Of a stretch of 41,649 nt of DNA, positions 4,990 to 40,313 are shown in pieces. Source of the DNA: a virus (Duplodnaviria > Heunggongvirae > Uroviricota > Caudoviricetes). A model generated the notes under the pieces. The model had not been told where the DNA came from, searched no databases, and saw only the letters and a program-made list of their open reading frames with translations. Location of the stretch: IMG/VR virus record IMGVR_UViG_2660238349_000007, one strand, 5' to 3'. Numbering within the stretch: the first letter of the stretch is position 1; every line of letters begins with the position of its first letter. Made by a program: the position numbers and the translations under genes.

Positions 4990-7053
4990 TTAATCCTTAC
5001 GGTAGTGGTACGCCTCAAAACCGCCAGCGTTCAGTGGGATATCGGGTGCCCATTCGGGGTTAGTGGAGAGAAGCGCGGAAAGCGCTTTATCGTTGAAATC
5101 TTCTGTGTCAGGTGCTTCGGTGATCACCTCGTCGTGTACCGTCAACACAATGCTGTAACCGGCATCTTCGATAAGCGGCATGTTTCCGGCCAGAACGTCG
5201 CGGGCGGCTGCCTGGGTGACGTTCTCCACCAGCTTTCCGCCGTAGGTTTTGAGTCGTTGCCATTTACGCGAATAAGAGTTAACACCCATGTAGGTGATAT
5301 TTCCTTTTTCGATAACCGGAGACGGGTAGCATACAGCGCGTCCGGATGGTAGCTGTATGCGCAGCCACGCGCCATCACGTCGGATTTTAAGATAGCCGCA
5401 ATACAATGTTTTTTGCGGTGTGGCGATTGCTGTGCGGACGGTGCGCTCCAGTTCGTACCAGAAATCGCAGGTCGCCGGGTGCGCCCTGCGCCAGAGACGT
5501 TTAAGTGAGTCGCAGGCGATAAATACCCGTTCAGAAAGCCCGTAGGTTGACTTGCGTTTAACCGATTCGTCGTACCAGCTTTTCGCCTCGCGGATAACAT
5601 CGCGGGGAATGTTTGGTAGTGCGGCGTTCGCCAGCTCGTCGAGATCGAGACCGTAAACCAGTGCAAAAGTGATGAAGGCCGACACACCACCACCATAACC
5701 CAGACCGAGTTCCATGACTTTACCGATCTGACGCATGTGTTTATCAACATCATCTGGTGCAATATCGAAAGCTTTTGCATACGCCAGTTTATATAAGTCC
5801 GGACCCGTTCCGGCGTCGTACTCTCTGAATGCATTCAGTTTCCATTCTTCTCCCGCCAGCCATGCCAGCATACGGCCTTCAATGTTCGACAAGTCACTTA
5901 CCACCAGCTTTTTGCCTGTTGGCGCGATAATGCAGCCACGTAACGCTGAACTGGTTAGTTCCATGATATTGTCAAACAGCAGGTCTGCACATCCGGCTTT
6001 CAGTGCTTCGATGCCTTCGTCTATTTGTTCCTGTTTTAGTGAAGGGCGGGGAAGGTTCTGGGGCTGGAATAGCCGTCCGGCCCAACGACCGGTACGTGAC
6101 GCCCCGCAGAACTGTAGCGTACCGCGTAAGCGCCCGTCGTGGCTTACGCCTTTCATCAGTGCCTTGTATTTACTGGTGCTGGTAGTACTGGCCTGCAGGC
6201 GGATAGCCAGCAGTTCTTTCACGGCAGATGGTAAATCGGGGTCGGCAATACGACGTTCCAGAGTACTGCGTTGCATGTCTGGTAGCTCCACACCGTAGGA
6301 TTCAACAATGTGCTTAATCAACGCGTCTCGTTGTGTGGCTGCCTGCACTTCGCCATCAGTCATTTCCTGTGTACGCTTTGCTAGGCGCTTTTGTTCCTGG
6401 TCTACCGCTTCGATCGCAGCGCGTGCGAGTTGCATGTCCATGCAGACGCCCCGGTCATTGATCTGCTGATCACGATGCCAGAGCGCCAGTTCTGTCCCCT
6501 GATAATTCCACTTCGGCAGACGTTTATAGACTTCGCGCATTGCCTCGATATCCAGTCCGGCGTAAGCAACAAAGCGCCGCCATTCTTCCGGGTGGGTTTT
6601 ACTGGTGGCCCGACGCAGTTTGCTGTTTTTCGGGCGTGGCTTACAGAACAGCTGGATCAGCGCTTTACCTTCTTTGTCCTTCGCTTTGTCTTGCGGGACG
6701 CCTAGTACTTCGCAGAGTTCCCCCAGAGACCCCGGGAGACCGTGCGCCAGCGCCTGCACCATCGTGTCGCGCCAACGTTCGACTGGCGGTGCCAGTCGCG
6801 GCATTGCATAACGCAGAACGGTGCGGTCGAAGTGAGAGTTATGGAAATAAAGCAGGGTTTCAGGGTCTGCGATTGCTTCGTATAAGCCGTGTGGAATACC
6901 ACCACCGGCAGTGATATCCCACACGTTTACTGGCCCGTCGTTGATAGCCCATGCGAAAAGCATCACTTCAACGCCTTCGGCATACGCATGGGTACCGTTG
7001 TTGATCGGAATGTCACAATAGGTTTCCAGGTCGCCCCATAGTATATTGGACAT
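4990..7053 (-). CDS. Family-A DNA polymerase with N-terminal 3'-5' exonuclease domain
   Basis: 687-aa ORF; N-terminal exonuclease-like region (WGDLETY…) and C-terminal family-A palm motifs (…[12 protein letters not shown]…, …LTVHDEV…); GAGGA RBS. Confidence 0.88.
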
Positions 7054-7114
7054 AAAATATCCTCATATGGTATATGGTTAAATGCTAGATATCATGAATT
7101 AAAGGAGACAACTA

Positions 7115-7804
7115 ATGACTGTGGGTAATAAGAGACAGCCTAATGGATTACCTGAATATTATTGTCACCGTGGTAACGACATAAAAGATGCGATAGTTCG
7201 GGATTTTATTATTCAGCCTGTTGCACACCTGAAACTTATTACTGGACAAACTAAAACCAGTTATTCCGGTTATCCGTTAACCGATCAGTACTATTGTTTT
7301 TCATTTAAAAAACGCTCTGATGAAAATTGTACAGGGGCTTTTTTCTGTGGTAGAGATGTTGCAAAGGATTTCATTCGGCGTATCGGTTGTACAGAGCTGC
7401 CGTTATTTAATCCTATGAAATCGGATACCAGTGCAGCAATAGAACGTTCCGGTTCTGGCTCAGGTAGTTCTGGTATTACTGTCAAGCCAAATGCTGACAA
7501 AAAGCTATTTATAGACGCAGCTCGTCTGTTAATGACGCTGTGGGATTCAACAAGTAAGGGACAAACCCCACTGGCGTCGGTTCTTAATGAAGCAATTTCT
7601 GGTGGTATAGATAAACCTCCAGAAATTAGACATGTAGTGGCGGTTAATACAATGTTGGGTAACACAAAAAATACTTTAACTGGTTTGCTGGATAAAGCAA
7701 GAGCGAAGTATCCTGATGTGTTATTCAGAGATTTTGATTTCACGCCTCTTAACGAGATTGTAAAACGTTCAAAATCATATAATAAGCATCCCCCTTGTTA
7801 TTGA
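7115..7804 (+). CDS. Hypothetical two-domain Cys-rich protein (moron on opposite strand)
   Basis: 229-aa ORF with strong RBS AAAGGAGA; Cys/His-rich N-terminal half, SGSGSGSSG linker, helical C-terminal half; AT-rich compared with flanks. Confidence 0.5.
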   Translation: MTVGNKRQPNGLPEYYCHRGNDIKDAIVRDFIIQPVAHLKLITGQTKTSYSGYPLTDQYYCFSFKKRSDENCTGAFFCGRDVAKDFIRRIGCTELPLFNPMKSDTSAAIERSGSGSGSSGITVKPNADKKLFIDAARLLMTLWDSTSKGQTPLASVLNEAISGGIDKPPEIRHVVAVNTMLGNTKNTLTGLLDKARAKYPDVLFRDFDFTPLNEIVKRSKSYNKHPPCY

Positions 7805-8439
7805 GTATCAGACACTGTATTGGTAGGAAGGCCTATCATTTCATTTAATGTCTCTCGATGTACTGCTGGTGCTAAAGGGACTGGCGGTGCGTCTGTTGGA
7901 AGCAGTTCTTTAGCTTCGGGCCATACATCCAGTAATCGTTTTACTGTCCGAACTTTATTTAGAGCCGCGCTGACGTTCTGTATGATTTCGGTTTCATCAC
8001 TTTTAATTTGTGTGTAGAGAGCATCAAAGCTATAAAACTCCGTTACCAGAGGATCTTCGCCAAGTAGAGTAAATTCTGCAGGTGCTATTTTATTAATATG
8101 CTCGGGGGCTCCTGATTCATAACCTCTGTAGTTGCCATTGAAATAAATGTTTGCTCTGGCTCCAGCCAGATTGAGATATATGCAGCAATCTTTTCGAATT
8201 AAAGAACTATTGGTTTTTAATGAATCAGGGATTTTTGTTACCATGGATTCAATCTTTTTTATATTTTTTAATATTTCAGCTTCTTTCTCTACGCCCCCGA
8301 TAGCTGCAAGCCGAACACGTTCGGCCCATTCAACACGAGCAGCTCGTAGTGCTGATTTACGTTTGGGGATACCCGCTTTCTCAAGTGCGTTATTGATGAT
8401 TTGAGTTTTAAGGTGATTAGTTAATACGGGCTGTGACAT
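7798..8439 (-). CDS. Hypothetical protein
   Basis: ORF in the early-left operon; start trimmed to MSQPVL with GAGGGA RBS; no recognisable motif. Confidence 0.5.
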   Translation of the reverse strand: MSQPVLTNHLKTQIINNALEKAGIPKRKSALRAARVEWAERVRLAAIGGVEKEAEILKNIKKIESMVTKIPDSLKTNSSLIRKDCCIYLNLAGARANIYFNGNYRGYESGAPEHINKIAPAEFTLLGEDPLVTEFYSFDALYTQIKSDETEIIQNVSAALNKVRTVKRLLDVWPEAKELLPTDAPPVPLAPAVHRETLNEMIGLPTNTVSDTQ

Positions 8440-8490
8440 TATTCTTTCCCTCATGAGATACCCCAGCACGTAGCTGGGGGATGAATATTT

Positions 8491-9039
8491 TTAAATTAGT
8501 GCTTCAGCATCAGCACCTTCGCTGATATCGTCGAAATCGTCAGCGCTTGCCACTCCGCCGCCAGCGAATGCATCGCCGTCTCGCAGGAACTGGACTCCTC
8601 CGAGTGAGGCATTAATGCGTTTACCGAAATTATTGTCCTGTGCCCAGATATCGATAACGGCGTTTACATAGCACCCTGCATAGGGACGTCCATCAGCCTG
8701 AATTAGTGGCGAACGATCGCGATCAAGAACAGCTGGGCGCGCTTTGTTAGCAGCGTTCAGGAAGAAATTGCCGGGAAAGCCTTCATACTCTGCTTTTTCA
8801 TCACCATCATGCAGGCACAGATTGAGTTTTTTCTCCAGCTGGTTATAAATGGACTCCCACTTCTCCCCCCATTTTTCCTTCGCTACCTGCTTCATAGCTT
8901 TACGGATTTCTTCCAGTTGTGGGTGTTTGGGTGACATTAAAAATACTGCGGAGAAACGTGGATCGCCTTCGCCGTTTACTGTTTTAGCTTCAAACAGAGA
9001 CGGGAAGGCCAGACGAACATTGTTCAGCTTCAGTTTCAT
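8491..9039 (-). CDS. Phage SSB-like protein (DUF2815-like)
   Basis: 182-aa ORF with acidic C-terminal tail (DDFDDISEGADAEALI) typical of SSB partner-binding tails; sits beside the DUF2800-like nuclease. Confidence 0.55.
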   Translation of the reverse strand: MKLKLNNVRLAFPSLFEAKTVNGEGDPRFSAVFLMSPKHPQLEEIRKAMKQVAKEKWGEKWESIYNQLEKKLNLCLHDGDEKAEYEGFPGNFFLNAANKARPAVLDRDRSPLIQADGRPYAGCYVNAVIDIWAQDNNFGKRINASLGGVQFLRDGDAFAGGGVASADDFDDISEGADAEALI

Positions 9040-9054
9040 GGGTATTTCCTTAAA

Positions 9055-10356
9055 TCAGATGAGGTCTGCGGTTAGCGTATCGTCGGATACGTCGTCGAAA
9101 TCATTTACAGGGTTGATATTGAGTGCGGGGCGTGGGTCTGACTCGGGAACGACGGTGGGTTTACCATCAGCTCGTGTTATCAGTGCCTCGACTTTTGACC
9201 AACGGCGCGGACTGGCCTTTTTGATAAGTTTTTCGGCTTTTGTGGGACTAATAAGTTTAAAGTCGAATACTTCTTCAGTTTTGTACCTGAACTGGTCCTT
9301 CAGAAGTGCGCGAGCTGCCTCTTCATCAATCCAGGCCCGGTTACCTTGTTTTCCTGTTACCAGTTTAAACCCCGGTACCGGATGTCCGGCATTGAGTTCA
9401 TTGTGAACCCGGTCCCGTACTGCCTTTAGCCAGGATTCAATAAAGTCGGCCTGGCTATAGATCTCCGCAAGCTGCTCAATGGTTAACAGAGGTACACGTG
9501 CACTGGCATTGGTGATTATTTCGCTGACAGGCTTTGTCAGATCTTCAAAATCGCTGGCCGCTGTTTGTAAATGCTGCATTTTCTGGGCAGTGCAAATAGC
9601 TTTTGCTTTACAGAAGCGGCACTGTTTTTCTCCAGGTATGAAGTTTTCCAGCGGTAGTGTCTCAATGCCTTCGCATTCAGCAATATTGAGAACAAGGATC
9701 GCACTGGTTGCGGCCTCCTGTGCCCGTTCACCGAAAGACTGAAGTTCCTGTACGGTTAACGACCATTCTGAAACGTGGTTGAGCCTTGGCTGGTGAATAA
9801 ATAATCTTACAGTCTCAAAGTCATACAGCATGCTGAATTGTTCGAGCGCACCCAGAGCATACAGTTGTAGTTGCTCATTTTGTTCTGCATCAATGCGGAC
9901 GCCTTTGCCATATTTCAGGTCGTGGATTTGTAATTCGTTACCCGCGATGATTATGCCGTCGGCAGTTCCGAAAGATTCTTCCACACCCGTTATATGTGAG
10001 AAATCAACACGTTGTTCAACCAATAGTTCATTATTCTGTGCAAGAGTCCAGACCGTATCAACATACCGGCCAACGGCTTCGACCATTTCATCATCCACCT
10101 GTGGGCCAGATGTATCATCAGGATTTTCGCGAAGGGGGTATGAGCCGAGAAACATAGAAACATTGCATCCGGCGTAGTGTTCCGGATGGCTTTGCCTGTT
10201 TCGTAGAACTTTTTCAGCAAGCGCGTGCGCTGCAGTGCCCTCGATTGCAAAAGTTGTTTCTTTATCCGGTTGTGTAGCCTCCAGCGCCAGACTTCCTGGG
10301 CAGCGCATCCATCGATGCGCTGATGATGGAGAAAGTTGTGCATGAACGTCTGGCAT
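9055..10356 (-). CDS. PD-(D/E)XK / Cas4-like nuclease (DUF2800-like)
   Basis: 433-aa ORF; N-terminal [14 protein letters not shown] and a C-terminal Cys cluster (CRFC…C) match the RecB/Cas4-type nuclease pattern. Confidence 0.65.
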
Positions 10357-10358
10357 GA

Positions 10359-11261
10359 TTAACCCTCCAGTGCTTTTTCAGCCAGGGTGATTACTTCAGC
10401 GAGATTTTCATCCGTTACTTCACCAAGTTTCCTGGCTCCCTGTTTTTCCAGAATTGCAATAGCTTCTGCCCGGTAACCCCCTTTTGCTAACTGGAGGATC
10501 AACCCTTCAGCTTGTTTGCGTAGTGCCGCGAAATCAATTGTATGGTCATCTTTGGCGTCATTATTCTGGCTGGAATTTGCTGCGTCTCTGCGTGCAAATT
10601 CTTCCTGCAGCTGAAGGTACTCAACACGGTTGATCTCGATATGGCCTTTTTTCAGCATCTCGTTCAACTTGCGTAAGGTGTGGAGTTCACTGGCTGCTGT
10701 GCCGGATACATTTTTGACGTAAAACGGCCCCGTGCGTTCTCCATCTTTGTTACTGGCCTTTTTCGGCTTAACTTCATCACGCCCATCCGCAGGTGCATCA
10801 AGTAGCTGCTCGGCAAAAGCACGCCGCTCGCCGATGGTTGGCAGGTCGTCCCAGAACTTAAGGATGTTACGGGACAGGTCCAGGAGAGCTGGTTTAAGCA
10901 GCGCCCTGGCTCGTTTGACGCCCTGCAATGCGCTGTCGAGAGCATCAATCTGAACTACTCGTTTATCGCCTTCAGCATCACGGTAGGCAACAGCACGTTG
11001 CAGCATGTCTTCTGTGATAGGGGTGGCTACCGGGTAGAAACCAGCCAGTGCGATAACGTCGCTGAACTCCAGATCATCCAGTGTCATTGCCGCTGACATA
11101 TTTTCAGTTTCAGTTGCTGTATCCCGACATTCCTGCACTCGTGAAATCGTGTCAGGATGCATAACAATACCTGATGCCATTGTGCGGATAAGACGTTCAA
11201 GCAGCGCATTATGTTGTGCCAGAAGTTGATTATTAAGTTCGAGACTGGTTTCTAAACTCAT
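10359..11261 (-). CDS. Hypothetical early protein
   Basis: 300-aa ORF, codon usage consistent with neighbours; translationally coupled to the upstream small ORF (ATGA overlap). Confidence 0.5.
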
Positions 11262-12664: not shown

Positions 12665-12784
12665 GGGATTAGTCCTTCTGGGTTGTATTAATGTGTATCT
12701 CCACATTAAAAACAATTTTTGTTGTATTTGACAAACCTCGTTTGTTGTTGCTAAATACCACTAAAATTGTATGAGGTGAAAGCA
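12665..12784. promoter_or_regulatory. Divergent immunity control region (PRM/PR-like) with operator palindromes
   Basis: Intergenic between divergent cI and cro; perfect palindrome TTAATGTG-tatctc-CACATTAA at 12688-12709; repeated GTTGTATT; TTGACA at 12728-12733. Confidence 0.5.
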
Positions 12785-15474: not shown

Positions 15475-15897
15475 ATGCGTAATATTCAACAGGTTTTAGA
15501 GCGCTGGGGTGGCTGGGCAGCGAGTGAAGGTGGTAGCGTCTACTTTCCTCCTGTTGCAGCCGGGTTTAAGAATCTGCTACCCGCGACGCAGTCTGGAAGG
15601 CTGAAATGCAGTGACAATGACGGTCTTATCATCAACTCCGCTATGAGCTGCCTGAAGAAAAAAGATCCGTATCTGTGCACGCTCCTTGAGTGGCATTACG
15701 TCCAGGCCATGCCCGTGCGGGCGATGGGTGAGAAGCTCGGCGTATCTCACACCCACGTTCTGAAGAGGCTTCAGGCGGCAGAGGGATTTATTGACGGTTG
15801 CTTAGCCATGCTGGATGTGGTGCTCGAAATGGATCAGTCGGTTCAGTCAAAGCCTCAGGCTATCAGGACTTTGCGTAGGAGCTGCTCGGCGGCATAA
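15475..15897 (+). CDS. Q: Late-gene antiterminator Q-like protein
   Basis: 140-aa ORF resembling Q/QuuD-type antiterminators as recalled (MR.IQ.VLERWG.WAA…, Cys pairs); sits upstream of the lysis cassette. Confidence 0.6.
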   Translation: MRNIQQVLERWGGWAASEGGSVYFPPVAAGFKNLLPATQSGRLKCSDNDGLIINSAMSCLKKKDPYLCTLLEWHYVQAMPVRAMGEKLGVSHTHVLKRLQAAEGFIDGCLAMLDVVLEMDQSVQSKPQAIRTLRRSCSAA

Positions 15898-32307: not shown

Positions 32308-33369
32308 ATGTCACAGAACTGGATGAGACATTTCGAGCTGCAGCTTGTGGACGGGAACGGTCAGGGAATTGAGCTAAGTGATTTCAAAGTCACCTTTACG
32401 ATCGACTGGTTCAACATCAGCAGCGCGTCCCGGGTAGGGACTATCAAAATTTATAACCTCTCGGCAGATACTGTGAACCGAATTACCGGGCAGGAGTTTT
32501 CGAAAGTGCGTCTGATTGCGGGTTACGACGGTATCGCGCCGGAGGTGTCAGCAAGCGACGTAGGGACCGTGCGGGAAGTTGACGCGGCGGACGTGGGCCA
32601 GAGAGATGGCCGCAACTACGGACTGATTTTCAGCGGTGAAATTCGCTACTCGGTCACAGGAAAAGACAGTCCGGTTGATACCTACGTCCTGATTCAGGCA
32701 GCAGATACTGATCTGGCTTTTGCCACCAGTATAACCTCACAGACGCTGGCTGCCGGTTACACGGTCGCTGATGTGAACCGTGCGCTGATGAAAGACTTCG
32801 AAGCCAAAGGCGCGACCGAAGGCCTGACGCCTGAAATGCCTGCTACTGTATTCCCCCGGGGGCGGGTACTCTTTGGCATGACGCGGCATCTAATGGATAA
32901 CGTAGCCGGACAATGTGGCGCAACATGGCAATTCGTGGACGGTCAGCGCCAGATGGTGGCGAATAACGAATATGTTCACGAAGCGATTGTGCTCAACAGC
33001 GCTACCGGGCTTATTGGCATGCCGCAGCAGACTATCGGTAACGGCGTAAACGTCCGCGCGCTTATTAATCCGAACATCCGGGTTAACGGGCTCATTCAGC
33101 TGGATCAGGCTTCCGTCTATCGTACCGCGTTGTCGAACAACGATATTGCGATGGTTGGTGGTCAGATCACCGACCAGAACACGGACGGAAATATCACGCT
33201 CAGCGGCACCACATCGCAGCCTGCCAGCATCGCAACGGATGGCGTTTATATTGTGCGCGGGATTATGTACACTGGCGACACAAGGGGCCAGGCGTGGTAC
33301 ATGGATATGATGTGCGAAGCGCGTGGCGCGGCGGATCTGTATACGCAATCGGCTTTGCAAAGGGGATGA
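32308..33369 (+). CDS. Putative baseplate hub / late-control-D-like tail protein
   Basis: 353-aa ORF in the baseplate block; call by position and size. Confidence 0.45.
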   Translation: MSQNWMRHFELQLVDGNGQGIELSDFKVTFTIDWFNISSASRVGTIKIYNLSADTVNRITGQEFSKVRLIAGYDGIAPEVSASDVGTVREVDAADVGQRDGRNYGLIFSGEIRYSVTGKDSPVDTYVLIQAADTDLAFATSITSQTLAAGYTVADVNRALMKDFEAKGATEGLTPEMPATVFPRGRVLFGMTRHLMDNVAGQCGATWQFVDGQRQMVANNEYVHEAIVLNSATGLIGMPQQTIGNGVNVRALINPNIRVNGLIQLDQASVYRTALSNNDIAMVGGQITDQNTDGNITLSGTTSQPASIATDGVYIVRGIMYTGDTRGQAWYMDMMCEARGAADLYTQSALQRG

Positions 33370-33372
33370 GCA

Positions 33373-33717
33373 ATGAGGGGTATTATTTTTCTGTTAGCTG
33401 CCTTTTCTGCGTGCAGCGCGTGGGCGGATGGCTTCACGGTTAAATGCGGTGGCTACACTATGGTTGCAAACCAGGGCGAGTTATCGACTATCAACGGTGA
33501 AAGAGTTACCTCTCAAAAAATCACCGAACTGGGTACCAATGGTTTGAAAGTAGACATGGGGCTTATGCCTGCCAAAGACGGTAACAACTACGGCTTTGAA
33601 TACATTCGTCGCCCTGGTACCGAAACGCGATTCCTGAATGTCCAGCTTCTGCAGAACAGCATGGATGCGCCGAAAATCATCGGATCTTTCCCTTGTAAAA
33701 AAGTGGCTGGGCGATGA
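33373..33717 (+). CDS. Secreted or lipoprotein-like small protein (moron in tail module)
   Basis: 114-aa ORF with N-terminal signal peptide MRGIIFLLAAFSACSAWA (lipobox-like FSAC or AxA cleavage site). Confidence 0.5.
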   Translation: MRGIIFLLAAFSACSAWADGFTVKCGGYTMVANQGELSTINGERVTSQKITELGTNGLKVDMGLMPAKDGNNYGFEYIRRPGTETRFLNVQLLQNSMDAPKIIGSFPCKKVAGR

Positions 33718-33720
33718 TTT

Positions 33721-33880
33721 TTGACGTCCATAATATTATGGATGAACTGTTGCCAATTGCGCTAAATTTAACAAAATAATACTGGTTAACGCATTTTTTG
33801 AACCATCTGTACACAGTAGTTGTCTATACTTTACCTTAAAGGTAAACTCTGCGCTCCACTGATGTTCACTATGGGAGGGG
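33721..33880 (+). promoter_or_regulatory. AT-rich promoter/operator region of the moron cassette
   Basis: TTGACG at 33721-33726; perfect 16-bp palindrome TCCATAATATTATGGA at 33727-33742; second palindrome TTTACCTT-a-AAGGTAAA at 33830-33846. Confidence 0.45.
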
Positions 33881-33882
33881 AT

Positions 33883-34122
33883 ATGAGGAAAATCGTTAAT
33901 CGTTACTTAGCCGCTGCCGGTAGTGTTATGGACATTATGCCGACTACAGATTACTGGCAATATGCTGCTTCTGGATCTGATTGTCGGGCAATAAGAAGTG
34001 ATGTTAAAGTCATTGCAAGTGACATGAACAGAGTTATCAGGTATGAGTTCAAAACCCCGCAAGCAGGCGGCCGTTCTCAAAAAGCATCAGGAAAACAAAG
34101 CGTCGCAAAAAGCCGTTCCTGA
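33883..34122 (+). CDS. Small hypothetical protein
   Basis: About 80-aa ORF with strong RBS GGGAGGGG before ATG 33883; 3' end overlaps the next ORF by 80 nt in another frame. Confidence 0.35.
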   Translation: MRKIVNRYLAAAGSVMDIMPTTDYWQYAASGSDCRAIRSDVKVIASDMNRVIRYEFKTPQAGGRSQKASGKQSVAKSRS

Positions 34123-34615
34123 TTCGGATGGTATCGACGAAGATATTGATTCCTCGGAATATGATGAGTCTCAGGAAGTAGTGGAAAAGCTGTCTGCAGT
34201 TGCCAACCTTGATCCTGAGCTAAAATCGAAGTTAACACCTGAACTTCTTGAGAGAGTTTCTAAGAACCCGAAGGTTATTGCCATGTTTCAGCAGGAGTCT
34301 TTTCAGGGACCACTCCCACCTCCTGCTATGCTCTTACAATATAATCAAATATTACCCGGCGGCGCTGAGAGAATTTTCAGGCTAACCGAAAAAGAGCAAG
34401 AGCATAGGCATAAGACGCAAAGTGATGCATTACTTGGTGCGGTTTCACGCGACAAACGTGGGCAATGGATGGGATTTTGCATTGCAATGGTAGTGCTTAT
34501 AATGGCTGCGTTTTTTGCTAATCGCGGTAACACTTGGTTCGCAGGTACTCTTGCTACTTTAGATCTCGTAGGATTAACTACAGTGTTTGTTTATGGTAGG
34601 AAGAAACCTAAATAA
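34043..34615 (+). CDS. DUF2335-like membrane protein
   Basis: 190-aa ORF with charged N-terminal region, conserved-looking LLQYNQILPGGAERIFRLTEKEQEHRH stretch and two C-terminal TM helices; family assignment from memory. Confidence 0.5.
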   Translation: MSSKPRKQAAVLKKHQENKASQKAVPDSDGIDEDIDSSEYDESQEVVEKLSAVANLDPELKSKLTPELLERVSKNPKVIAMFQQESFQGPLPPPAMLLQYNQILPGGAERIFRLTEKEQEHRHKTQSDALLGAVSRDKRGQWMGFCIAMVVLIMAAFFANRGNTWFAGTLATLDLVGLTTVFVYGRKKPK

Positions 34616-34630
34616 TCCATACATCCTTTC

Positions 34631-34654
34631 AAACCCGCTTCGGCGGGTTTTTTG
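34631..34654 (+). terminator. Intrinsic terminator ending the moron cassette
   Basis: CCCGC-ttcg-GCGGG hairpin followed by TTTTTT. Confidence 0.7.
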
Positions 34655-34672
34655 CTTTCTGGAGCCTACTAA

Positions 34673-35425
34673 ATGGCCGTATCTGACCAGACCCGCAGCG
34701 GCGACCTTGCCGAAACATTCAAATCTGAACGGGAAACAACAAAGAACCAGATCCGTGTCGCCTTGCCTGGCATTATTCAGTCATTCGCTCCTGATGCGGT
34801 GACGGCGGTTGTACAGCCTGCTATCCGTTACGTTGAAATTGATAACGACGGCAACCGCATTACCAAAAATTACCCATTGCTGGTGGATGTGCCAGTGGTA
34901 TTCCCGCGTGGCGGAGGCTGTACGCTAACGTTTCCAGTTAAAGCCGGTGATGAATGTTTGGTGATTTTTGCCGATCGTTGTATTGATTTCTGGTGGCAGA
35001 GTGGCGGGATACAGGAGCCGGTCGATGACAGAATGCATGATTTATCGGATGCGTTTTGTATTGTCGGTCCCCAGTCGCAGGCAAGGAAGATTAGCGGTAT
35101 TAATACCAGTGCCACACAGTTGCGTAGTGATGACGGCAGCACCTATTTTGAGCTTAATCCTGATACCAGGAAAATTAAAATTGTCGCTCCGGGGGGCCTT
35201 GATGTGGTTGCCCCTCTGGCTGATTTTTCTGAGAAAGTAACCATTCATGGCCTGTTAACCTGGATGGGAGGCATGGTGGGGTCTGTTGTTTCTGGTGTGG
35301 CTTCAAAAATCACTGGTGCTGTTGAGTTTTTGGGTAGCGTGAAGGCTAACGGCAAGCCAATCGATGATACGCACACTCATGGTGGTGTTCAGCGCGGTGG
35401 AAGCAATACCGACGGAGTAAACTGA
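34673..35425 (+). CDS. Baseplate spike protein (P2 gpV-like)
   Basis: 250-aa ORF with C-terminal THTHGG…GG motif resembling the gpV apex. Confidence 0.7.
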   Translation: MAVSDQTRSGDLAETFKSERETTKNQIRVALPGIIQSFAPDAVTAVVQPAIRYVEIDNDGNRITKNYPLLVDVPVVFPRGGGCTLTFPVKAGDECLVIFADRCIDFWWQSGGIQEPVDDRMHDLSDAFCIVGPQSQARKISGINTSATQLRSDDGSTYFELNPDTRKIKIVAPGGLDVVAPLADFSEKVTIHGLLTWMGGMVGSVVSGVASKITGAVEFLGSVKANGKPIDDTHTHGGVQRGGSNTDGVN

Positions 35426-36977: not shown

Positions 36978-37654
36978 GCAAATACACCGAACTAATCACG
37001 AACTACCACGCCACCAAACCTAAATTTCTTGCACATGTTGATCTGATGACCCGGCCGCTTATTGATGTTGCGGCTGCCACCAGAGGGCTGATTACTGTAT
37101 TTGATATTGACTCTGCGGTTGGTGTGCAACTTGACATTCTTGGATTGTGGATCGGACGTAGCCGTGTTGTCAGCCAGCCTATCTCAGGTGTCTATTTCCG
37201 CTGGGATACCGACGGGCTTGGATATGATCAGGGGGTATGGCAGGGGCCATATGATCCTGATTCAGGATACATGTATCTCAGCGATGAAACTTATCGTGTC
37301 ATTCTTAAAGCGAAGATTGCGATTAATAACTGGGACGGACGGAATGATTCGCTTCCGGCAATCCTTGACGCTGCAACAGCAGGATCCGGACTGCGAATGC
37401 AGATTGTCGATAACCAGGACATGACGATATCGGTCTGGGTCTTTCCTGATACTGATATTTCAGATGTATCGCGTGAGTTAATTGCTGCAATTAAACAGGG
37501 ATATCTCACAGTAAAAGCCGCCGGGGTGTGGGCGGGTGGCATTGAAACACCTTCGGTGGAAACCCCATCGGAAGGTTCAAAATTTTTTGGTTTTGATATG
37601 GATAACGAATTTATCAGTGGTTTTGATCTAGGGGCATGGGGAGTATTACTCTGA
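36974..37654 (+). CDS. Tail protein I-like
   Basis: 226-aa ORF between J-like and tail fibre genes; stop overlaps the tail fibre start (TGATG). Confidence 0.55.
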
Positions 37655-38325: not shown

Positions 38326-38768
38326 TGATGAAATATCTGTACGTAAACAACCTGGCATATCCTTACGAACTTCAGTCTCTTTATGTTGAAAAAGGTGAAT
38401 GGCCTGAAGAAAAAGGTGTTGATATAGACGAAGTAATTTTCAGGGAATATTTCTATGATACACCACCAGAAGGAAAATACAGATGTGTCGGAGAGGATGG
38501 ACTGCCTGCATGGGCAGATATTCCTCCACCAACACGTGAAGAACAAATTGCATCAGCCGAAACTAAAAAGCAGCAATTGATTAACCAGGCCAACGAATAC
38601 ATCAACAGTAAACAATGGCCAGGTAAAGCATCAATTGGTCGTCTGAAAGGTGAGGAACTGGCGCAATATAATTTGTGGCTGGATTATCTGGACGCACTGG
38701 AACTGGTCGATACTTCCGGTGCGCCAGATATTGAATGGCCTACGCCTCCGGCAGTTCAGGCCAGATGA
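38325..38768 (+). CDS. Tail fibre assembly protein (Tfa/U-like)
   Basis: 147-aa ORF with C-terminal Tfa signature (…LWLDYLDALELVDTSGAPDIEWPTPP). Confidence 0.7.
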   Translation: MMKYLYVNNLAYPYELQSLYVEKGEWPEEKGVDIDEVIFREYFYDTPPEGKYRCVGEDGLPAWADIPPPTREEQIASAETKKQQLINQANEYINSKQWPGKASIGRLKGEELAQYNLWLDYLDALELVDTSGAPDIEWPTPPAVQAR

Positions 38769-39342
38769 CGTCCGGCGCTGTGCTGGTATCTGTTGCCGTC
38801 ACCGCGTCAATGTAATCCAGCACAGCGTTAAGTCGGGTGTTTTCTGGCTGCGTCAGCTTCCGCCCAGCCTGTAATTTCAGTTGAATCAGACTGATGGAAG
38901 CCATTGCAGCATCAATCAGCGACTGGCGCTGTGCTTCTGCCGCTTCTACTGCGGCGCTATGCTGTGCCTCGGTATCGGTCACCCATTTCTCACCATCCCA
39001 TTTATCGTATGGCGTTAATGGGGCGATAGTGGTTGTATTTTCGGGGTAATCACCCGGAGTTGTGATTTCTTTGGCGTCTCCCGTTTCGGTGTTATAGACG
39101 ATTTCTCCGCGATGGTCTGGCACATATTCCCATGAGTTTAAATCCGCAGAGCGGCAGATGGCATAACCAGCTTTATATGTTCCTGGTGCATCTAAACAGG
39201 AACATGCCGGAATACCGACACCAACAGCAAGATATTCAGTTGATGTGGAAATATATTCTCGTGTTTCACCATTATAATTATAGACAGTAATATCCCCCGC
39301 CTTCGTGGCAATAAACTCGCTATTTAATACGGCATTATCCAT
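38740..39342 (-). CDS. Alternative tail fibre assembly protein (U'-like)
   Basis: 200-aa ORF with the same C-terminal signature (…LNAVLDYIDAVTATDTSTAPDVIWPELP), inverted relative to the other Tfa. Confidence 0.7.
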   Translation of the reverse strand: MDNAVLNSEFIATKAGDITVYNYNGETREYISTSTEYLAVGVGIPACSCLDAPGTYKAGYAICRSADLNSWEYVPDHRGEIVYNTETGDAKEITTPGDYPENTTTIAPLTPYDKWDGEKWVTDTEAQHSAAVEAAEAQRQSLIDAAMASISLIQLKLQAGRKLTQPENTRLNAVLDYIDAVTATDTSTAPDVIWPELPEA

Positions 39343-39855
39343 TATGCAGCCCTCACGATGTAATTAAATGAAAGGTTACGAGGGCGCATTGATATCCATG
39401 CCCCGGTAAAATTATCCTCCGCTGTCCTTTGAGTACCCGTTATGGAGTTATCTGCTGATGCAGGAACATAATCGCTATTATTTCCTGCTTTAGGATTAGC
39501 TGGGTTTCCAACAGTTATAACAGAATCAGCAGTAGCAAAAGCGATACCTACTTTGACATTAGTATTCAGATCGTAACCGTAATAATCCTGCAAAGCTGTA
39601 CGAATAAATGTTGCAGCCTGACCACTTAGCAATGAACGCCCCGTATCAATCCCTCTAGAATCATCCCAGCCACGAATAAACTCACCACGTAAATCAGGCA
39701 ATTTATTTGTCGGGTAAGCCTTTGCCAGTTCCGGGTATTCTTCAGCAGAAAAAGCTGCTCCGTTGCATTTCAGCCAGCCTGTTGGAGGTGTCTCTGAAGG
39801 CCACGGAACAGGTGCACCAACAGGTAATGCTGAACCTTCTCCCAAACCAACGTTT
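39342..39855 (-). CDS. Alternative tail fibre C-terminal segment (Sv'-like), promoterless in this orientation
   Basis: Minus-strand ORF whose 5' end is the right inversion site; reading frame across the site (NVGLGEG) matches the left site (NLGLGEA). Confidence 0.55.
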
Positions 39856-39917
39856 AAGAAAATGCAGAGATTACGGCTAACTGGCATCATCCCCGGTTTT
39901 TATTCAGGGGATCCATC

Positions 39918-40313
39918 ATGCTTATTGGCTATGTCCGCGTATCAACAAATGACCAGAATACAGAATTGCAGCGTAACGCGCTGGAGTGCGCAGGATGTGA
40001 ACTGATTTTTGAAGATAAAATCAGCGGAACAAAATCAGCCAGACCGGGATTGAAAAAACTGCTCAGAACGCTATCAGAAGGAGATACGCTGGTTGTCTGG
40101 AAGCTGGACAGACTGGGGCGCAGTGTGCGGCATCTTGTCGTGCTGGTGGAGGAGTTGCGCGAACAAGGTGTTAATTTTAGTAGTTATGTTATTACAGGTG
40201 GGGGATTTCTCCCCCTTATGCAGATTTTCTCGTTAACTATTGGCGAAGTGGCCATATTTTTCTGTTTTTTAAAAAACTATCTTCAACTATATAACTGCAA
40301 CAATGTTCACTAA
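39918..40313 (+). pseudogene. Truncated serine DNA invertase (Gin/Hin/Pin family)
   Basis: First ~87 aa match the invertase catalytic domain (MLIGYVRVSTNDQNTELQRNAL…LVVWKLDRLGRS…GVNF); downstream sequence diverges into AT-rich unrelated sequence with no HTH domain. Confidence 0.7.

What the first reader, a model, noticed from the sequence alone, without database searches (positions are those of the whole stretch)
33373..34655. Self-contained moron cassette inside the baseplate gene cluster
Between the hub-like gene and the gpV-like spike gene sit a signal-peptide or lipoprotein-like ORF, then an AT-rich promoter region with two perfect palindromes, then an 80-aa ORF and a DUF2335-like membrane protein overlapping by 80 nt, closed by a strong terminator. 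Two exact palindromes in the promoter imply repressor or activator control separate from late-gene expression.
Basis: partly seen in the sequence, partly recalled or inferred. Interest (0 to 1): 0.65.

Follow-up and report, generated by a model that had tools for sequence, protein, structure and literature searches.

The report
Swappable two-gene cassette in prophage baseplate
A 0.9-kb accessory cassette (a small unannotated gene plus a DUF2335 membrane-protein gene, with its own operator-bearing upstream region) sits in a cargo hotspot between the baseplate hub and spike genes of an E. coli prophage. It is an ordinary kind of phage "moron", but the gene pair is widely conserved and has never been studied.

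Summary
The moron reading is partly right, but the boundaries are wrong.

- **First ORF (33373-33717):** a backbone gene for a secreted protein, not a lipoprotein. It follows the hub gene in most relatives.
- **Terminator (34631-34650):** also backbone. It is kept ~20 nt before the spike gene even in relatives with no cargo.
- **True indel (~33718-34627):** only 14 of 225 related E. coli prophages carry it. Relatives hold other cargo there, including PD-Lambda-1, an Mrr-like nuclease and HEPN pairs.
- **The 79-aa ORF:** real but unannotated. A homologue lies directly upstream of DUF2335 in 74 of 87 loci, in 69 of them with DUF2335 overlapping in the +1 frame. The same layout occurs in Pseudomonas and Streptococcus phages, and Xenorhabdus has the two fused.
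- **Second palindrome:** TTACC-N5-GGTAA, the motif that flanks the repressor gene and most promoters in epsilon15-like phages. This prophage encodes no matching repressor.

Function is unknown. My best guess is an inner-membrane exclusion or abortive module. Known kind, uncharacterised content, moderate interest.

The parts
32308..33369 (+). Baseplate hub gene (context; left backbone).
   Evidence: phrog_196 baseplate hub, E 4.6e-89; weak Pfam E217_GP41 match.
33373..33717 (+). ORF-A: 114-aa secreted protein. It belongs to the conserved backbone, not to the mobile cassette.
   Evidence: phrog_3443, E 1.3e-47. A homologue follows the hub gene in most of 45 loci from many Enterobacterales, including minimal hub-A-spike loci. 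Signal peptides are conserved; the lipobox Cys is not; two mature-protein Cys are.
33718..34627 (+). The actual variable cassette (indel): upstream control region plus ORF-B plus ORF-C.
   Evidence: Homology to prophages with other cargo ends at 33702-33714 and resumes at 34628-34673. Only 14 of the 225 E. coli genomes with any match to this region carry it. GC 0.375-0.46 in the windows inside the cassette, against 0.50-0.56 in the hub gene upstream and 0.48-0.51 in the spike gene downstream.
33727..33742 (.). Palindrome 1, TCCATAATATTATGGA. Role unknown: a protein site, or an RNA hairpin 3' of ORF-A.
   Evidence: Perfect 8+8 palindrome, unique in the window. Folds to -9 kcal/mol as RNA but has no U-tract.
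33750..33777 (+). Candidate sigma-70 promoter TTGCCA-16-CAAAAT (9 of 12 matches).
   Evidence: Consensus scan only. Not validated.
33825..33830 (+). -10-like hexamer TATACT abutting palindrome 2. No good -35 lies at 16-18 nt.
   Evidence: Read from the sequence. Related cassettes show the same layout of a -10-like hexamer followed by a palindrome.
33830..33846 (.). Palindrome 2. Its core, 33831-33845, is TTACC-TTAAA-GGTAA, the operator-type motif of epsilon15-like phages.
   Evidence: Perfect palindrome. The same TTACC-N5-GGTAA motif precedes B-C modules in many loci. It occurs 9-10 times per Uetakevirus genome, flanking the repressor gene and most promoters, against 0.04 expected. It occurs once in this window.
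33883..34122 (+). ORF-B: 79-aa small protein, not annotated by PGAP, and the conserved partner of DUF2335.
   Evidence: phrog_26284, E 2e-12. A B-like ORF lies immediately upstream of DUF2335 in 74 of 87 loci and also in Pseudomonas phage MD8 and Streptococcus phage Javan433. It is fused to DUF2335 in Xenorhabdus. AlphaFold2 gives two helices at pLDDT 66.
34043..34615 (+). ORF-C: 190-aa DUF2335 protein. Variable acidic N-terminus, conserved helical domain (GPLPPP...PGGAERIF...EKEQ.HRH), C-terminal two-helix membrane hairpin.
   Evidence: PF10097, 66.6 bits; phrog_3996 'moron... membrane protein', E 1.2e-46. AlphaFold2 pLDDT 76, all-helical, with long helix 107-160 and helix 164-186. No PADLOC, NCBIfam or PDB relatives.
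34631..34659 (+). Intrinsic terminator (UUCG-loop hairpin plus U-run). It is a backbone feature shared by all cargo types.
   Evidence: An equivalent hairpin lies ~20 nt before the spike ATG in 32 of 43 loci by strict criteria, with 4 more imperfect. These include cargo-less loci L042, L049, L051 and L053.
34673..35425 (+). Membrane-puncturing spike gene (context; right backbone).
   Evidence: Pfam spike N-terminal domain, E 2.7e-43, plus the Apex motif; PGAP annotation.
15475..15897 (+). Q-family antiterminator of the same prophage (context). It would let late transcription read through the 34631 terminator.
   Evidence: PGAP annotation of the identical E. coli FDAARGOS_144 region. The read-through role is inferred from lambdoid biology.

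Best explanation
**What it is (shown).** The segment ~33718-34627 is a horizontally exchanged accessory module. It sits in a cargo hotspot of a family of Enterobacterales myovirus prophages, between a conserved secreted-protein gene (ORF-A) and a conserved backbone terminator that precedes the spike gene.

**Contents.**
- A non-coding control region.
- A small, well-translated gene (ORF-B, strong Shine-Dalgarno).
- A DUF2335 gene (ORF-C) that starts inside ORF-B in the +1 frame without a Shine-Dalgarno of its own.

**How it works (inferred).**
- ORF-C output is probably tied to, and kept below, ORF-B output.
- B (two helices) and C work together as one membrane-associated unit. They are always adjacent and are fused in some bacteria. 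From the positive charges flanking its two C-terminal hydrophobic helices, C probably has its N-terminal bulk in the cytoplasm.
- The control region carries a TTACC-N5-GGTAA palindrome next to a -10-like hexamer. This is the operator-type motif of epsilon15-like phages, so the module probably came with its regulatory region from such a phage.
- This prophage has no matching repressor, so the module is probably expressed constitutively in the lysogen, unless a co-resident or incoming epsilon15-like phage supplies the repressor.
- During lytic growth, Q-modified polymerase reads through the terminator.

**Function (inferred from context only).** An inner-membrane superinfection-exclusion or abortive-infection function.
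For: **Indel and hotspot**
- cargo between ORF-A and spike ranges from 0 to ~1.75 kb in 45 loci.
- Cargo includes PD-Lambda-1 (E 2.8e-82), PDC-S42, an Mrr-like nuclease, HEPN, YafO and T5orf172.

**Cassette mobility**
- The same cassette (B and C at least 98.7% identical) sits next to ORF-A alleles 58-100% identical and spike alleles 60-100% identical.
- Divergent B-C pairs occupy the same slot in L025, L067 and L085.

**Backbone terminator and antiterminator**
- Backbone terminator. Q antiterminator.

**B-C linkage**
- 74 of 87 loci have B upstream of C, 69 with the +1 overlap of 26-80 nt.
- The same arrangement occurs in Pseudomonas phage MD8 and Streptococcus phage Javan433.
- Fusions: Xenorhabdus P0028-P0034, L104, L106.
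- GGAGG lies before B in nearly all variants. No Shine-Dalgarno is visible before C in the window or in RAH1, read by eye.

**Operator**
-. Only one site in the window.
- The prophage's own repressor region has different repeats.
- No homologue of the Uetakevirus repressor or cro in the window.

**Moron-type positions of DUF2335 elsewhere**
- Next to the integrase in MD8, after the lysin at the genome end in Javan433, and in the tail gene region of RAH1.
- PHROG category 'moron'.
Against: - No transcript, promoter or protein data exist.
- The best sigma-70 match is only 9 of 12, and TATACT lacks a proper -35.
- In epsilon15-like phages the same motif sits at most promoters, including apparent lytic ones. 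There the module may be repressed in lysogens and act early in lytic growth, which is not classic moron behaviour.
- C matches no PADLOC model, is not similar to P22 SieA, and has no structural relatives in the PDB. The defence function therefore rests on guilt by association.
- Binding of the palindrome by the Uetakevirus repressor is inferred from site positions, not shown. I could not read the epsilon15 genome paper.
- Whether the host strain carries an epsilon15-like prophage was not checked.
Confidence: 0.5

Rival explanations
1. B-C is a lytic-cycle (early) phage function rather than a prophage-expressed moron. In its native phages it is shut off by the immunity repressor together with the antirepressor and early operons, and it acts after infection or induction. 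Possible roles are excluding secondary infection during lytic growth, modulating the membrane or lysis timing, or countering a host defence. In this prophage it is a passenger with an orphan operator.
For: - TTACC-N5-GGTAA sites lie before B-C, before the anti-repressor gene, on both sides of the repressor gene, and before replication and terminase operons in ZX5 and BUCT711.
- Overexpression experiments reported that the ZX5 repressor and anti-repressor affect the lytic-lysogenic cycle (PMC9782041).
- In the window the palindrome abuts the -10-like hexamer, a repressing position.
Against: - In Pseudomonas MD8 and Streptococcus Javan433 the pair lies at att-proximal positions typical of prophage-expressed genes.
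- In this prophage no cognate repressor is encoded, so it would not be silenced here.
- The module is dispensable for this phage family: absent from most relatives.
Confidence: 0.25
2. B-C is a toxin-antitoxin-like or abortive-infection pair. C is a membrane-damaging effector made in small amounts. B is an abundant small inhibitor or sensor that also sets C's translation through the overlap. Loss or titration of B on infection releases C and kills the cell.
For: - Small upstream gene with a strong Shine-Dalgarno, overlapping a downstream membrane-protein gene that shows no Shine-Dalgarno in the window or RAH1.
- Palindromic operator-like sites at the promoter, as in type II toxin-antitoxin operons.
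- The slot holds toxin-antitoxin and defence cargo in relatives, including YafO and HEPN.
Against: - B has no recognisable DNA-binding fold: two helices, low confidence.
- Natural B-C fusions fit a stable complex better than an inhibitor that is released.
- The operator motif appears to belong to a phage repressor, not to B.
- No PADLOC, Pfam or NCBIfam toxin signature.
Confidence: 0.15
3. The ORFs are conserved virion or assembly components of the baseplate, and the palindromes are chance or RNA-stability elements.
For: - ORF-A is conserved and translationally close-coupled to the hub gene (3-nt gap), so ORF-A behaves like a backbone gene.
- Palindrome 1 folds to a -9 kcal/mol hairpin just 3' of ORF-A.
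Against: - B-C is absent from ~94% of related E. coli prophages and from nearly all relatives in other genera.
- It is replaced by unrelated cargo or by nothing.
- B-C also occurs in podoviruses and siphoviruses with unrelated tails.
- ORF-A has a cleavable signal peptide, which is hard to reconcile with cytoplasmic virion assembly.
- Two perfect palindromes in 165 nt did not occur in any of 5000 shuffles.
Confidence: 0.05

Closest known systems
Lambdoid 'morons', e.g. the HK97 gp15 moron in the tail gene region (review 'The moron comes of age', PMC3594210; original definition recalled from Juhala/Hendrix 2000)
   Same: - Extra DNA between conserved late or tail genes, absent from close relatives.
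- Lower GC than the flanks.
- Its own upstream control region, with a terminator downstream.
- A Q-antiterminated late operon around it.
- Product is a small inner-membrane protein. HK97 gp15 gives superinfection exclusion.
   Different: - The terminator here belongs to the backbone and is shared by every cargo type.
- The promoter is not canonical and is untested.
- The cargo is a two-gene overlapping module with no sequence relation to gp15.
- Its operator-like site is of a foreign phage type.
- Expression from the prophage has not been shown.
Hotspots of anti-phage systems in P2-like phages and P4 satellites (Rousset et al. 2022, PMC9122126)
   Same: A fixed position between conserved phage genes holds many alternative cargos, including recognised defence systems (PD-Lambda-1, an Mrr-like nuclease, HEPN pairs). 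These are exchanged by recombination in the conserved flanks.
   Different: - A different phage family: Pam3/E217/SEN34-type baseplate.
- A different location: inside the baseplate operon, between the hub/ORF-A and the spike.
- I did not check whether those papers' hotspot catalogues already list this slot.
P22 immI/sieA region and epsilon15-like (Uetakevirus) accessory region next to the tailspike gene
   Same: In epsilon15-like phages B-C lies beside an anti-repressor gene and other small membrane-protein genes, each preceded by a repressor-type palindrome. This resembles the P22 arrangement of sieA-mnt-arc-ant beside gene 9.
   Different: - C is not similar to P22 SieA (BLASTP E = 27).
- The operators are a different sequence and appear to be those of the main immunity repressor, not of Arc or Mnt.
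Pfam DUF2335 (PF10097) / PHROG 3996
   Same: ORF-C is a clear member: 66.6 bits against a cut-off of 25; phrog_3996 E 1.2e-46.
   Different: - The family has no known function.
- The only papers in the library that give 'DUF2335' a function call it a T6SS phospholipase toxin domain. That does not fit this membrane-protein family, so I suspect a different family is meant.
- The obligate upstream partner gene is not part of the family description as I know it.

Membership tests
Moron (independent transcription unit added to a phage genome) | Present in some and absent from other otherwise collinear relatives. | tested here: met
   - 14 of the 225 E. coli genomes with any match to the region carry it.
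- Breakpoints lie at ~33702-33714 and ~34628-34673.
- 45 loci in other species carry other cargo or none.
Moron (independent transcription unit added to a phage genome) | Own promoter. | tested here: inconclusive
   - A 165-nt AT-rich spacer holds a 9-of-12 sigma-70 match and a TATACT hexamer without a good -35.
- The operator-like palindrome argues for a promoter.
- No transcript data exist.
Moron (independent transcription unit added to a phage genome) | Own terminator. | tested here: not met
   A strong terminator follows the cassette. However, the same hairpin precedes the spike gene in relatives with other cargo or none, so it belongs to the backbone.
Moron (independent transcription unit added to a phage genome) | Base composition differs from the neighbours. 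| tested here: met
   GC 0.375-0.46 in the windows inside the cassette, against 0.50-0.56 in the hub gene upstream and 0.48-0.51 in the spike gene downstream.
Moron (independent transcription unit added to a phage genome) | Expressed from the repressed prophage. | not testable with these tools
   Needs RNA-seq or reporter fusions. The heterologous operator makes this uncertain.
DUF2335 (PF10097) | Pfam HMM score above the gathering threshold. | tested here: met
   66.6 bits against 25, residues 92-141.
Known anti-phage defence systems (PADLOC-DB v2) | Match to any PADLOC protein model. | tested here: not met
   ORF-C had no PADLOC hit. ORF-A and ORF-B were members of the same scan, and none of the 17 families hit is a plausible match for them, but the output does not map hits to members. 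Other cargos in the slot do hit, for example PD-Lambda-1 in L035.
P22 SieA-type superinfection exclusion protein | Sequence similarity to SieA. | tested here: not met
   BLASTP E = 27. Functional analogy is not excluded.
Type II toxin-antitoxin operon | Upstream antitoxin with a DNA-binding domain, plus a recognised toxin family. | tested here: not met
   - No Pfam or NCBIfam hits for B.
- The B model is two helices at pLDDT 66.
- C is not in a toxin family.
- Only the gene order and the palindromes resemble a toxin-antitoxin operon.
Bacterial lipoprotein (ORF-A) | Conserved lipobox Cys at the signal-peptidase II site. | tested here: not met
   The 'FSAC' Cys is present only in close alleles. 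Homologues have AXA-type signal-peptidase I sites followed by a conserved 'CGG(Y/F)'.
Epsilon15-like (Uetakevirus) immunity-controlled promoter | TTACC-N5-GGTAA palindrome at the promoter. | tested here: met
   Perfect site at 33831-33845 abutting TATACT. There are 9-10 such sites per Uetakevirus genome against 0.04 expected.
Epsilon15-like (Uetakevirus) immunity-controlled promoter | Cognate repressor encoded by the same element. | tested here: not met
   No homologue of the BUCT711 repressor or cro in the window. The window's own repressor region has different repeats. The rest of the host genome was not searched.

The most novel reading that the evidence does not exclude
ORF-B plus DUF2335 is a previously unrecognised, ancient two-component membrane module of temperate phages, found from Enterobacterales to Pseudomonas and Streptococcus. 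It provides superinfection exclusion or abortive defence. Its conserved +1 overlap sets the B:C ratio, or occasionally yields a fusion protein like the natural Xenorhabdus fusions. In this prophage its expression is wired to the immunity repressor of an unrelated phage group, giving cross-phage regulation.
Probability: 0.3. Interest if true: 0.65.

Novelty: new member of a known kind. Interest (0 to 1): 0.45.

Why it matters
It marks a so-far undescribed cargo hotspot inside the baseplate operon of a widespread family of Enterobacterales prophages. Relatives carry recognised defence genes in the same position, so the uncharacterised cargos there, including this one, are good candidates for new phage-exclusion functions.

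It also shows that DUF2335, a family with no known function found in temperate phages of several phyla, nearly always comes with a small overlapping partner gene. NCBI's PGAP annotation skips that gene in this strain, and it has no counterpart in the large protein database I searched. That gives a concrete two-gene unit to clone and test.

The foreign immunity-type operator on an accessory gene is a small but testable example of possible regulatory cross-talk between unrelated prophages.

Tried and rejected
- **Word-indexed protein search with ORF-B:** nothing found, because the gene is rarely called. An exhaustive phmmer search found only about ten clusters of 64-76 aa proteins, plus three spurious repeat proteins.
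- **DUF2335 literature:** four hits in all, none describing this membrane-protein family. The two T6SS papers call 'DUF2335' a phospholipase toxin domain and probably mean another family.
- **Structure route:** the AlphaFold2 model of C (pLDDT 76) has no PDB match by Foldseek. BFVD returned only two significant matches, both unnamed proteins, which tells nothing about function. Profile searches of PDB sequences were empty for B, C and ORF-A.
- **B as the operator-binding protein:** considered and rejected. The motif flanks the HTH repressor gene in Uetakevirus genomes, and B shows no DNA-binding fold.
- **Host transcription factor for the palindromes:** no convincing match to the E. coli sites I could recall. 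Not pursued.
- **Programmed frameshift joining B to C:** the +1 relation is conserved, but I saw no recognisable slippery or shift-prone site in the 80-nt overlap (read). Kept only as part of the novel case.
- **Palindrome 2 as a 5'-UTR RNA hairpin:** weak as RNA (-5 kcal/mol, z = -1.5). The arms are conserved in sequence while the spacer varies, which points to a protein site.
- **The window's own CI operators:** different sequence.
- **The epsilon15 genome paper (PMC2698709):** not held.
- **P22 SieA similarity:** none.
Full report
**Where the window comes from.** The window is 100% identical to a prophage of E. coli FDAARGOS_144, integrated beside yfhL. It is a temperate myovirus with a simple Pam3/E217/SEN34-type baseplate: a Dit-like protein, plug, hub, spike, baseplate J, DUF2612 and gp53-like proteins. 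It also has a LexA-family repressor, a Q-family antiterminator upstream of the lysis and late genes, and an integrase.

**Checking the observation.**
- ORF-A is 33373-33717 (114 aa). ORF-B is 33883-34122 (79 aa, with GGAGG 4-5 nt upstream). ORF-C is 34043-34615 (190 aa; DUF2335, 66.6 bits against a 25-bit cut-off). B and C overlap by 80 nt.
- The 165-nt spacer 33718-33882 has GC 0.375, against 0.50-0.56 in the flanking genes.
- It holds two perfect palindromes, TCCATAATATTATGGA (33727-33742) and TTTACCTTaAAGGTAAA (33830-33846). No dinucleotide shuffle out of 5000 produced two such palindromes. The whole 41.6-kb window has only three.
- The terminator is a UUCG-loop hairpin with a U-run at 34631-34659, -12.8 kcal/mol.

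**Is it an indel, and where are its edges?** Of 5426 complete E. coli genomes, 225 match part of the region but only 14 carry the whole cassette. In prophages and phages with other cargo, homology stops at 33702-33714, the end of ORF-A. It resumes at 34628-34673, at the terminator or the spike start.

A hub-protein scan of one genome per species returned 45 loci from many Enterobacterales.
- Most have an ORF-A homologue directly after the hub gene.
- Seven loci are minimal hub-ORF-A-spike arrangements, and three have hub-spike only.
- The rest carry 0.3-1.75 kb of unrelated cargo between ORF-A and the spike.

ORF-A is therefore backbone. Its homologues all have cleavable signal peptides of the AXA type and two conserved Cys in the mature part.

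The terminator is backbone too. A hairpin of the form AACCCGC-loop-GCGGGTT plus a T-run lies about 20 nt before the spike ATG in 32 of 43 loci by strict criteria, with four more imperfect. This includes loci with no cargo at all. The mobile unit is therefore about 33718-34627.

The same cassette (B and C at least 98.7% identical) is found next to ORF-A alleles 58-100% identical and spike alleles 60-100% identical. That indicates exchange by recombination in the conserved flanks.

**What else occupies the slot.** Forty-four alternative cargo proteins from these loci (47 sequences with the three window ORFs) were scanned. Hits include:
- PD-Lambda-1 (L035, E 2.8e-82);
- the candidate defence system PDC-S42 (L034);
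- a membrane-anchored Mrr-like nuclease (L026);
- HEPN-containing two-gene sets, a YafO toxin, T5orf172 and a Clp protease-like protein;
- several secreted or membrane proteins of unknown function.

The slot behaves like the defence hotspots described for P2/P4 (PMC9122126). Many of these cargos are directly coupled to ORF-A with no spacer. None has palindromes like those of the B-C cassette.

**ORF-B is a real gene and the obligate partner of DUF2335.** PGAP does not annotate it, and a word-indexed protein search found nothing. It does hit phrog_26284.
- A tblastn search found a homologue in Klebsiella phage RAH1, immediately upstream of that phage's DUF2335 gene.
- An HMM built from five such small ORFs was searched in six frames over all fetched loci. 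It found a B-like ORF directly upstream of DUF2335 in 74 of 87 loci.
- In 69 of those 74, the DUF2335 frame is +1 relative to B and overlaps its 3' end by 26-80 nt.
- B is preceded by GGAGG in nearly all variants. C has no visible Shine-Dalgarno in the window or RAH1, by eye.
- More divergent loci also have B-like small ORFs: L118 and L128-L132, Pseudomonas phage MD8 next to its integrase, and Streptococcus phage Javan433 after its lysin at the genome end. In MD8 and Javan433 the ORFs overlap C in the +1 frame.
- In seven Xenorhabdus species, and in L104 and L106, the N-terminal B motif is fused in frame to the DUF2335 core.

I read this as a single functional unit whose two products act together.

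The AlphaFold2 models add a little.
- C is all-helical at pLDDT 76: a variable acidic N-terminus, a helical domain carrying the conserved GPLPPP...PGGAERIF...EKEQ.HRH motifs, and a long helix that runs into a two-helix hydrophobic hairpin.
- B is two helices at pLDDT 66.
- From the positive charges flanking the hairpin, I infer that C's N-terminal bulk faces the cytoplasm.
- Neither protein has relatives in the PDB, PADLOC or NCBIfam. C is unrelated to P22 SieA.

**The palindromes.** The second palindrome has the core TTACC-N5-GGTAA.
- The same motif, with a variable 5-nt spacer, lies next to a -10-like hexamer before B-C modules in epsilon15-like podophages and their relatives. It also lies before their anti-repressor and neighbouring small genes.
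- In whole genomes there are 9 perfect sites in Klebsiella phage BUCT711 and 10 in E. coli phage ZX5, against 0.04 expected.
- These sites include pairs on both sides of the repressor gene, and sites before the replication and terminase operons.
- Overexpression experiments reported that the ZX5 repressor and anti-repressor affect the lytic-lysogenic cycle (PMC9782041).

I infer that this is the immunity-operator motif of that phage group. Binding itself is not shown.

In the window the motif occurs once. The window's own repressor-cro spacer has different repeats, and the window encodes no homologue of the Uetakevirus repressor or cro. The cassette therefore carries what looks like an orphan foreign operator.

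Other B-C cassettes carry different repeats at the same place: GTATTGA inverted in RAH1 and direct in L085, and TCAACA...TGTTGA in L025. Control regions seem to be matched to different regulators.

The first palindrome has no counterpart elsewhere in the window. It could be a protein site or a -9 kcal/mol RNA hairpin 3' of ORF-A. I could not assign it.

**The promoter.** It remains a prediction. TTGCCA-16-CAAAAT (33750-33777) scores 9 of 12, and TATACT (33825-33830) has no good -35.

**Most likely mechanism.**
- Shown: an accessory, exchangeable two-gene module in a cargo hotspot, with its own non-coding control region, bounded downstream by a backbone terminator, in a phage that has a Q antiterminator.
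- Inferred: transcription starts in the spacer and stops at the terminator in the lysogen. Q-modified polymerase reads through during lytic growth. B is made in excess and C at a low level tied to B translation. B and C form a membrane-associated complex.
- Inferred from context only: the complex excludes or aborts other phages.

The main rival reading is that B-C is an early lytic function. In its native phages it carries the same motif as the lytic promoters.

**Verdict.** The moron interpretation is partly supported, with corrected boundaries. This is a known kind of element carrying uncharacterised but widely conserved content. Interest is moderate.

Noticed in passing
window 33373-33717: ORF-A is a small secreted protein with a signal peptide and two conserved Cys. 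It is conserved between the hub and spike genes across many Enterobacterales prophages and sits 3 nt after the hub stop. A periplasm-targeted protein inside a baseplate operon is odd. Its role (exclusion factor, or something else) is unknown.
   Followed up: partly
window 34631-34659; L042, L049, L051, L053 upstream of the spike gene: A strong intrinsic terminator sits inside the late baseplate operon, about 20 nt before the spike gene, even in relatives with no cargo. It may insulate the tail genes from upstream transcription and serve as the right-hand recombination anchor of the hotspot.
   Followed up: partly
L004 3492-4651; also L010, L011, L017, L027, L031 and L002 (phage YP3): The commonest alternative cargo in the slot is a two-gene set: a protein of ~243-273 aa plus a protein of ~126-142 aa. 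One member of the cargo set matched Pfam HEPN (E 5.8e-05), but the scan does not say which, and L004's own 142-aa protein gave no Pfam hit. By eye the small proteins share an 'AISRAYY..YH' motif. The L004 243-aa protein has no PADLOC or Pfam match, so this is a possible uncharacterised defence pair.
   Followed up: partly
L136 (BUCT711) and L137 (ZX5), whole genomes: TTACC-N5-GGTAA occurs 9-10 times per Uetakevirus genome, at nearly every intergenic promoter region. Sites include those before the terminase and structural operons, which suggests global repression by one regulator.
   Followed up: partly
window 12685-12710: The inverted repeat TTAATGTG-tatctc-CACATTAA lies in the divergent repressor/cro spacer and is probably this prophage's own operator.
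   Followed up: no
window 37478-37494: The third perfect palindrome of the window, TTAATTGCTGCAATTAA, lies inside the DUF2612 baseplate gene.
   Followed up: no
window ~38740-40170: Opposed tail-fibre and tail-fibre-assembly genes lie next to a truncated 'recombinase family' pseudogene (PGAP annotation). This looks like a decayed Gin/Cin-type invertible host-range segment.
   Followed up: no
window ~4990-11260: The early region encodes a DNA polymerase, DUF2800, DUF2815, an Nmad5-family 'nucleotide modification' protein, VRR-NUC and SNF2 proteins (PGAP annotation). This hints at a DNA-modification or replication module.
   Followed up: no
L007 (phage RAH1) 2915-4899: In this Klebsiella siphovirus the B-C pair is part of a multi-gene accessory island between the major tail protein gene and the tape-measure gene. 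The island holds an anti-repressor, B-C, and a 146-aa ORF whose N-terminus (...VVLAGC...) reads by eye like a lipoprotein signal.
   Followed up: no
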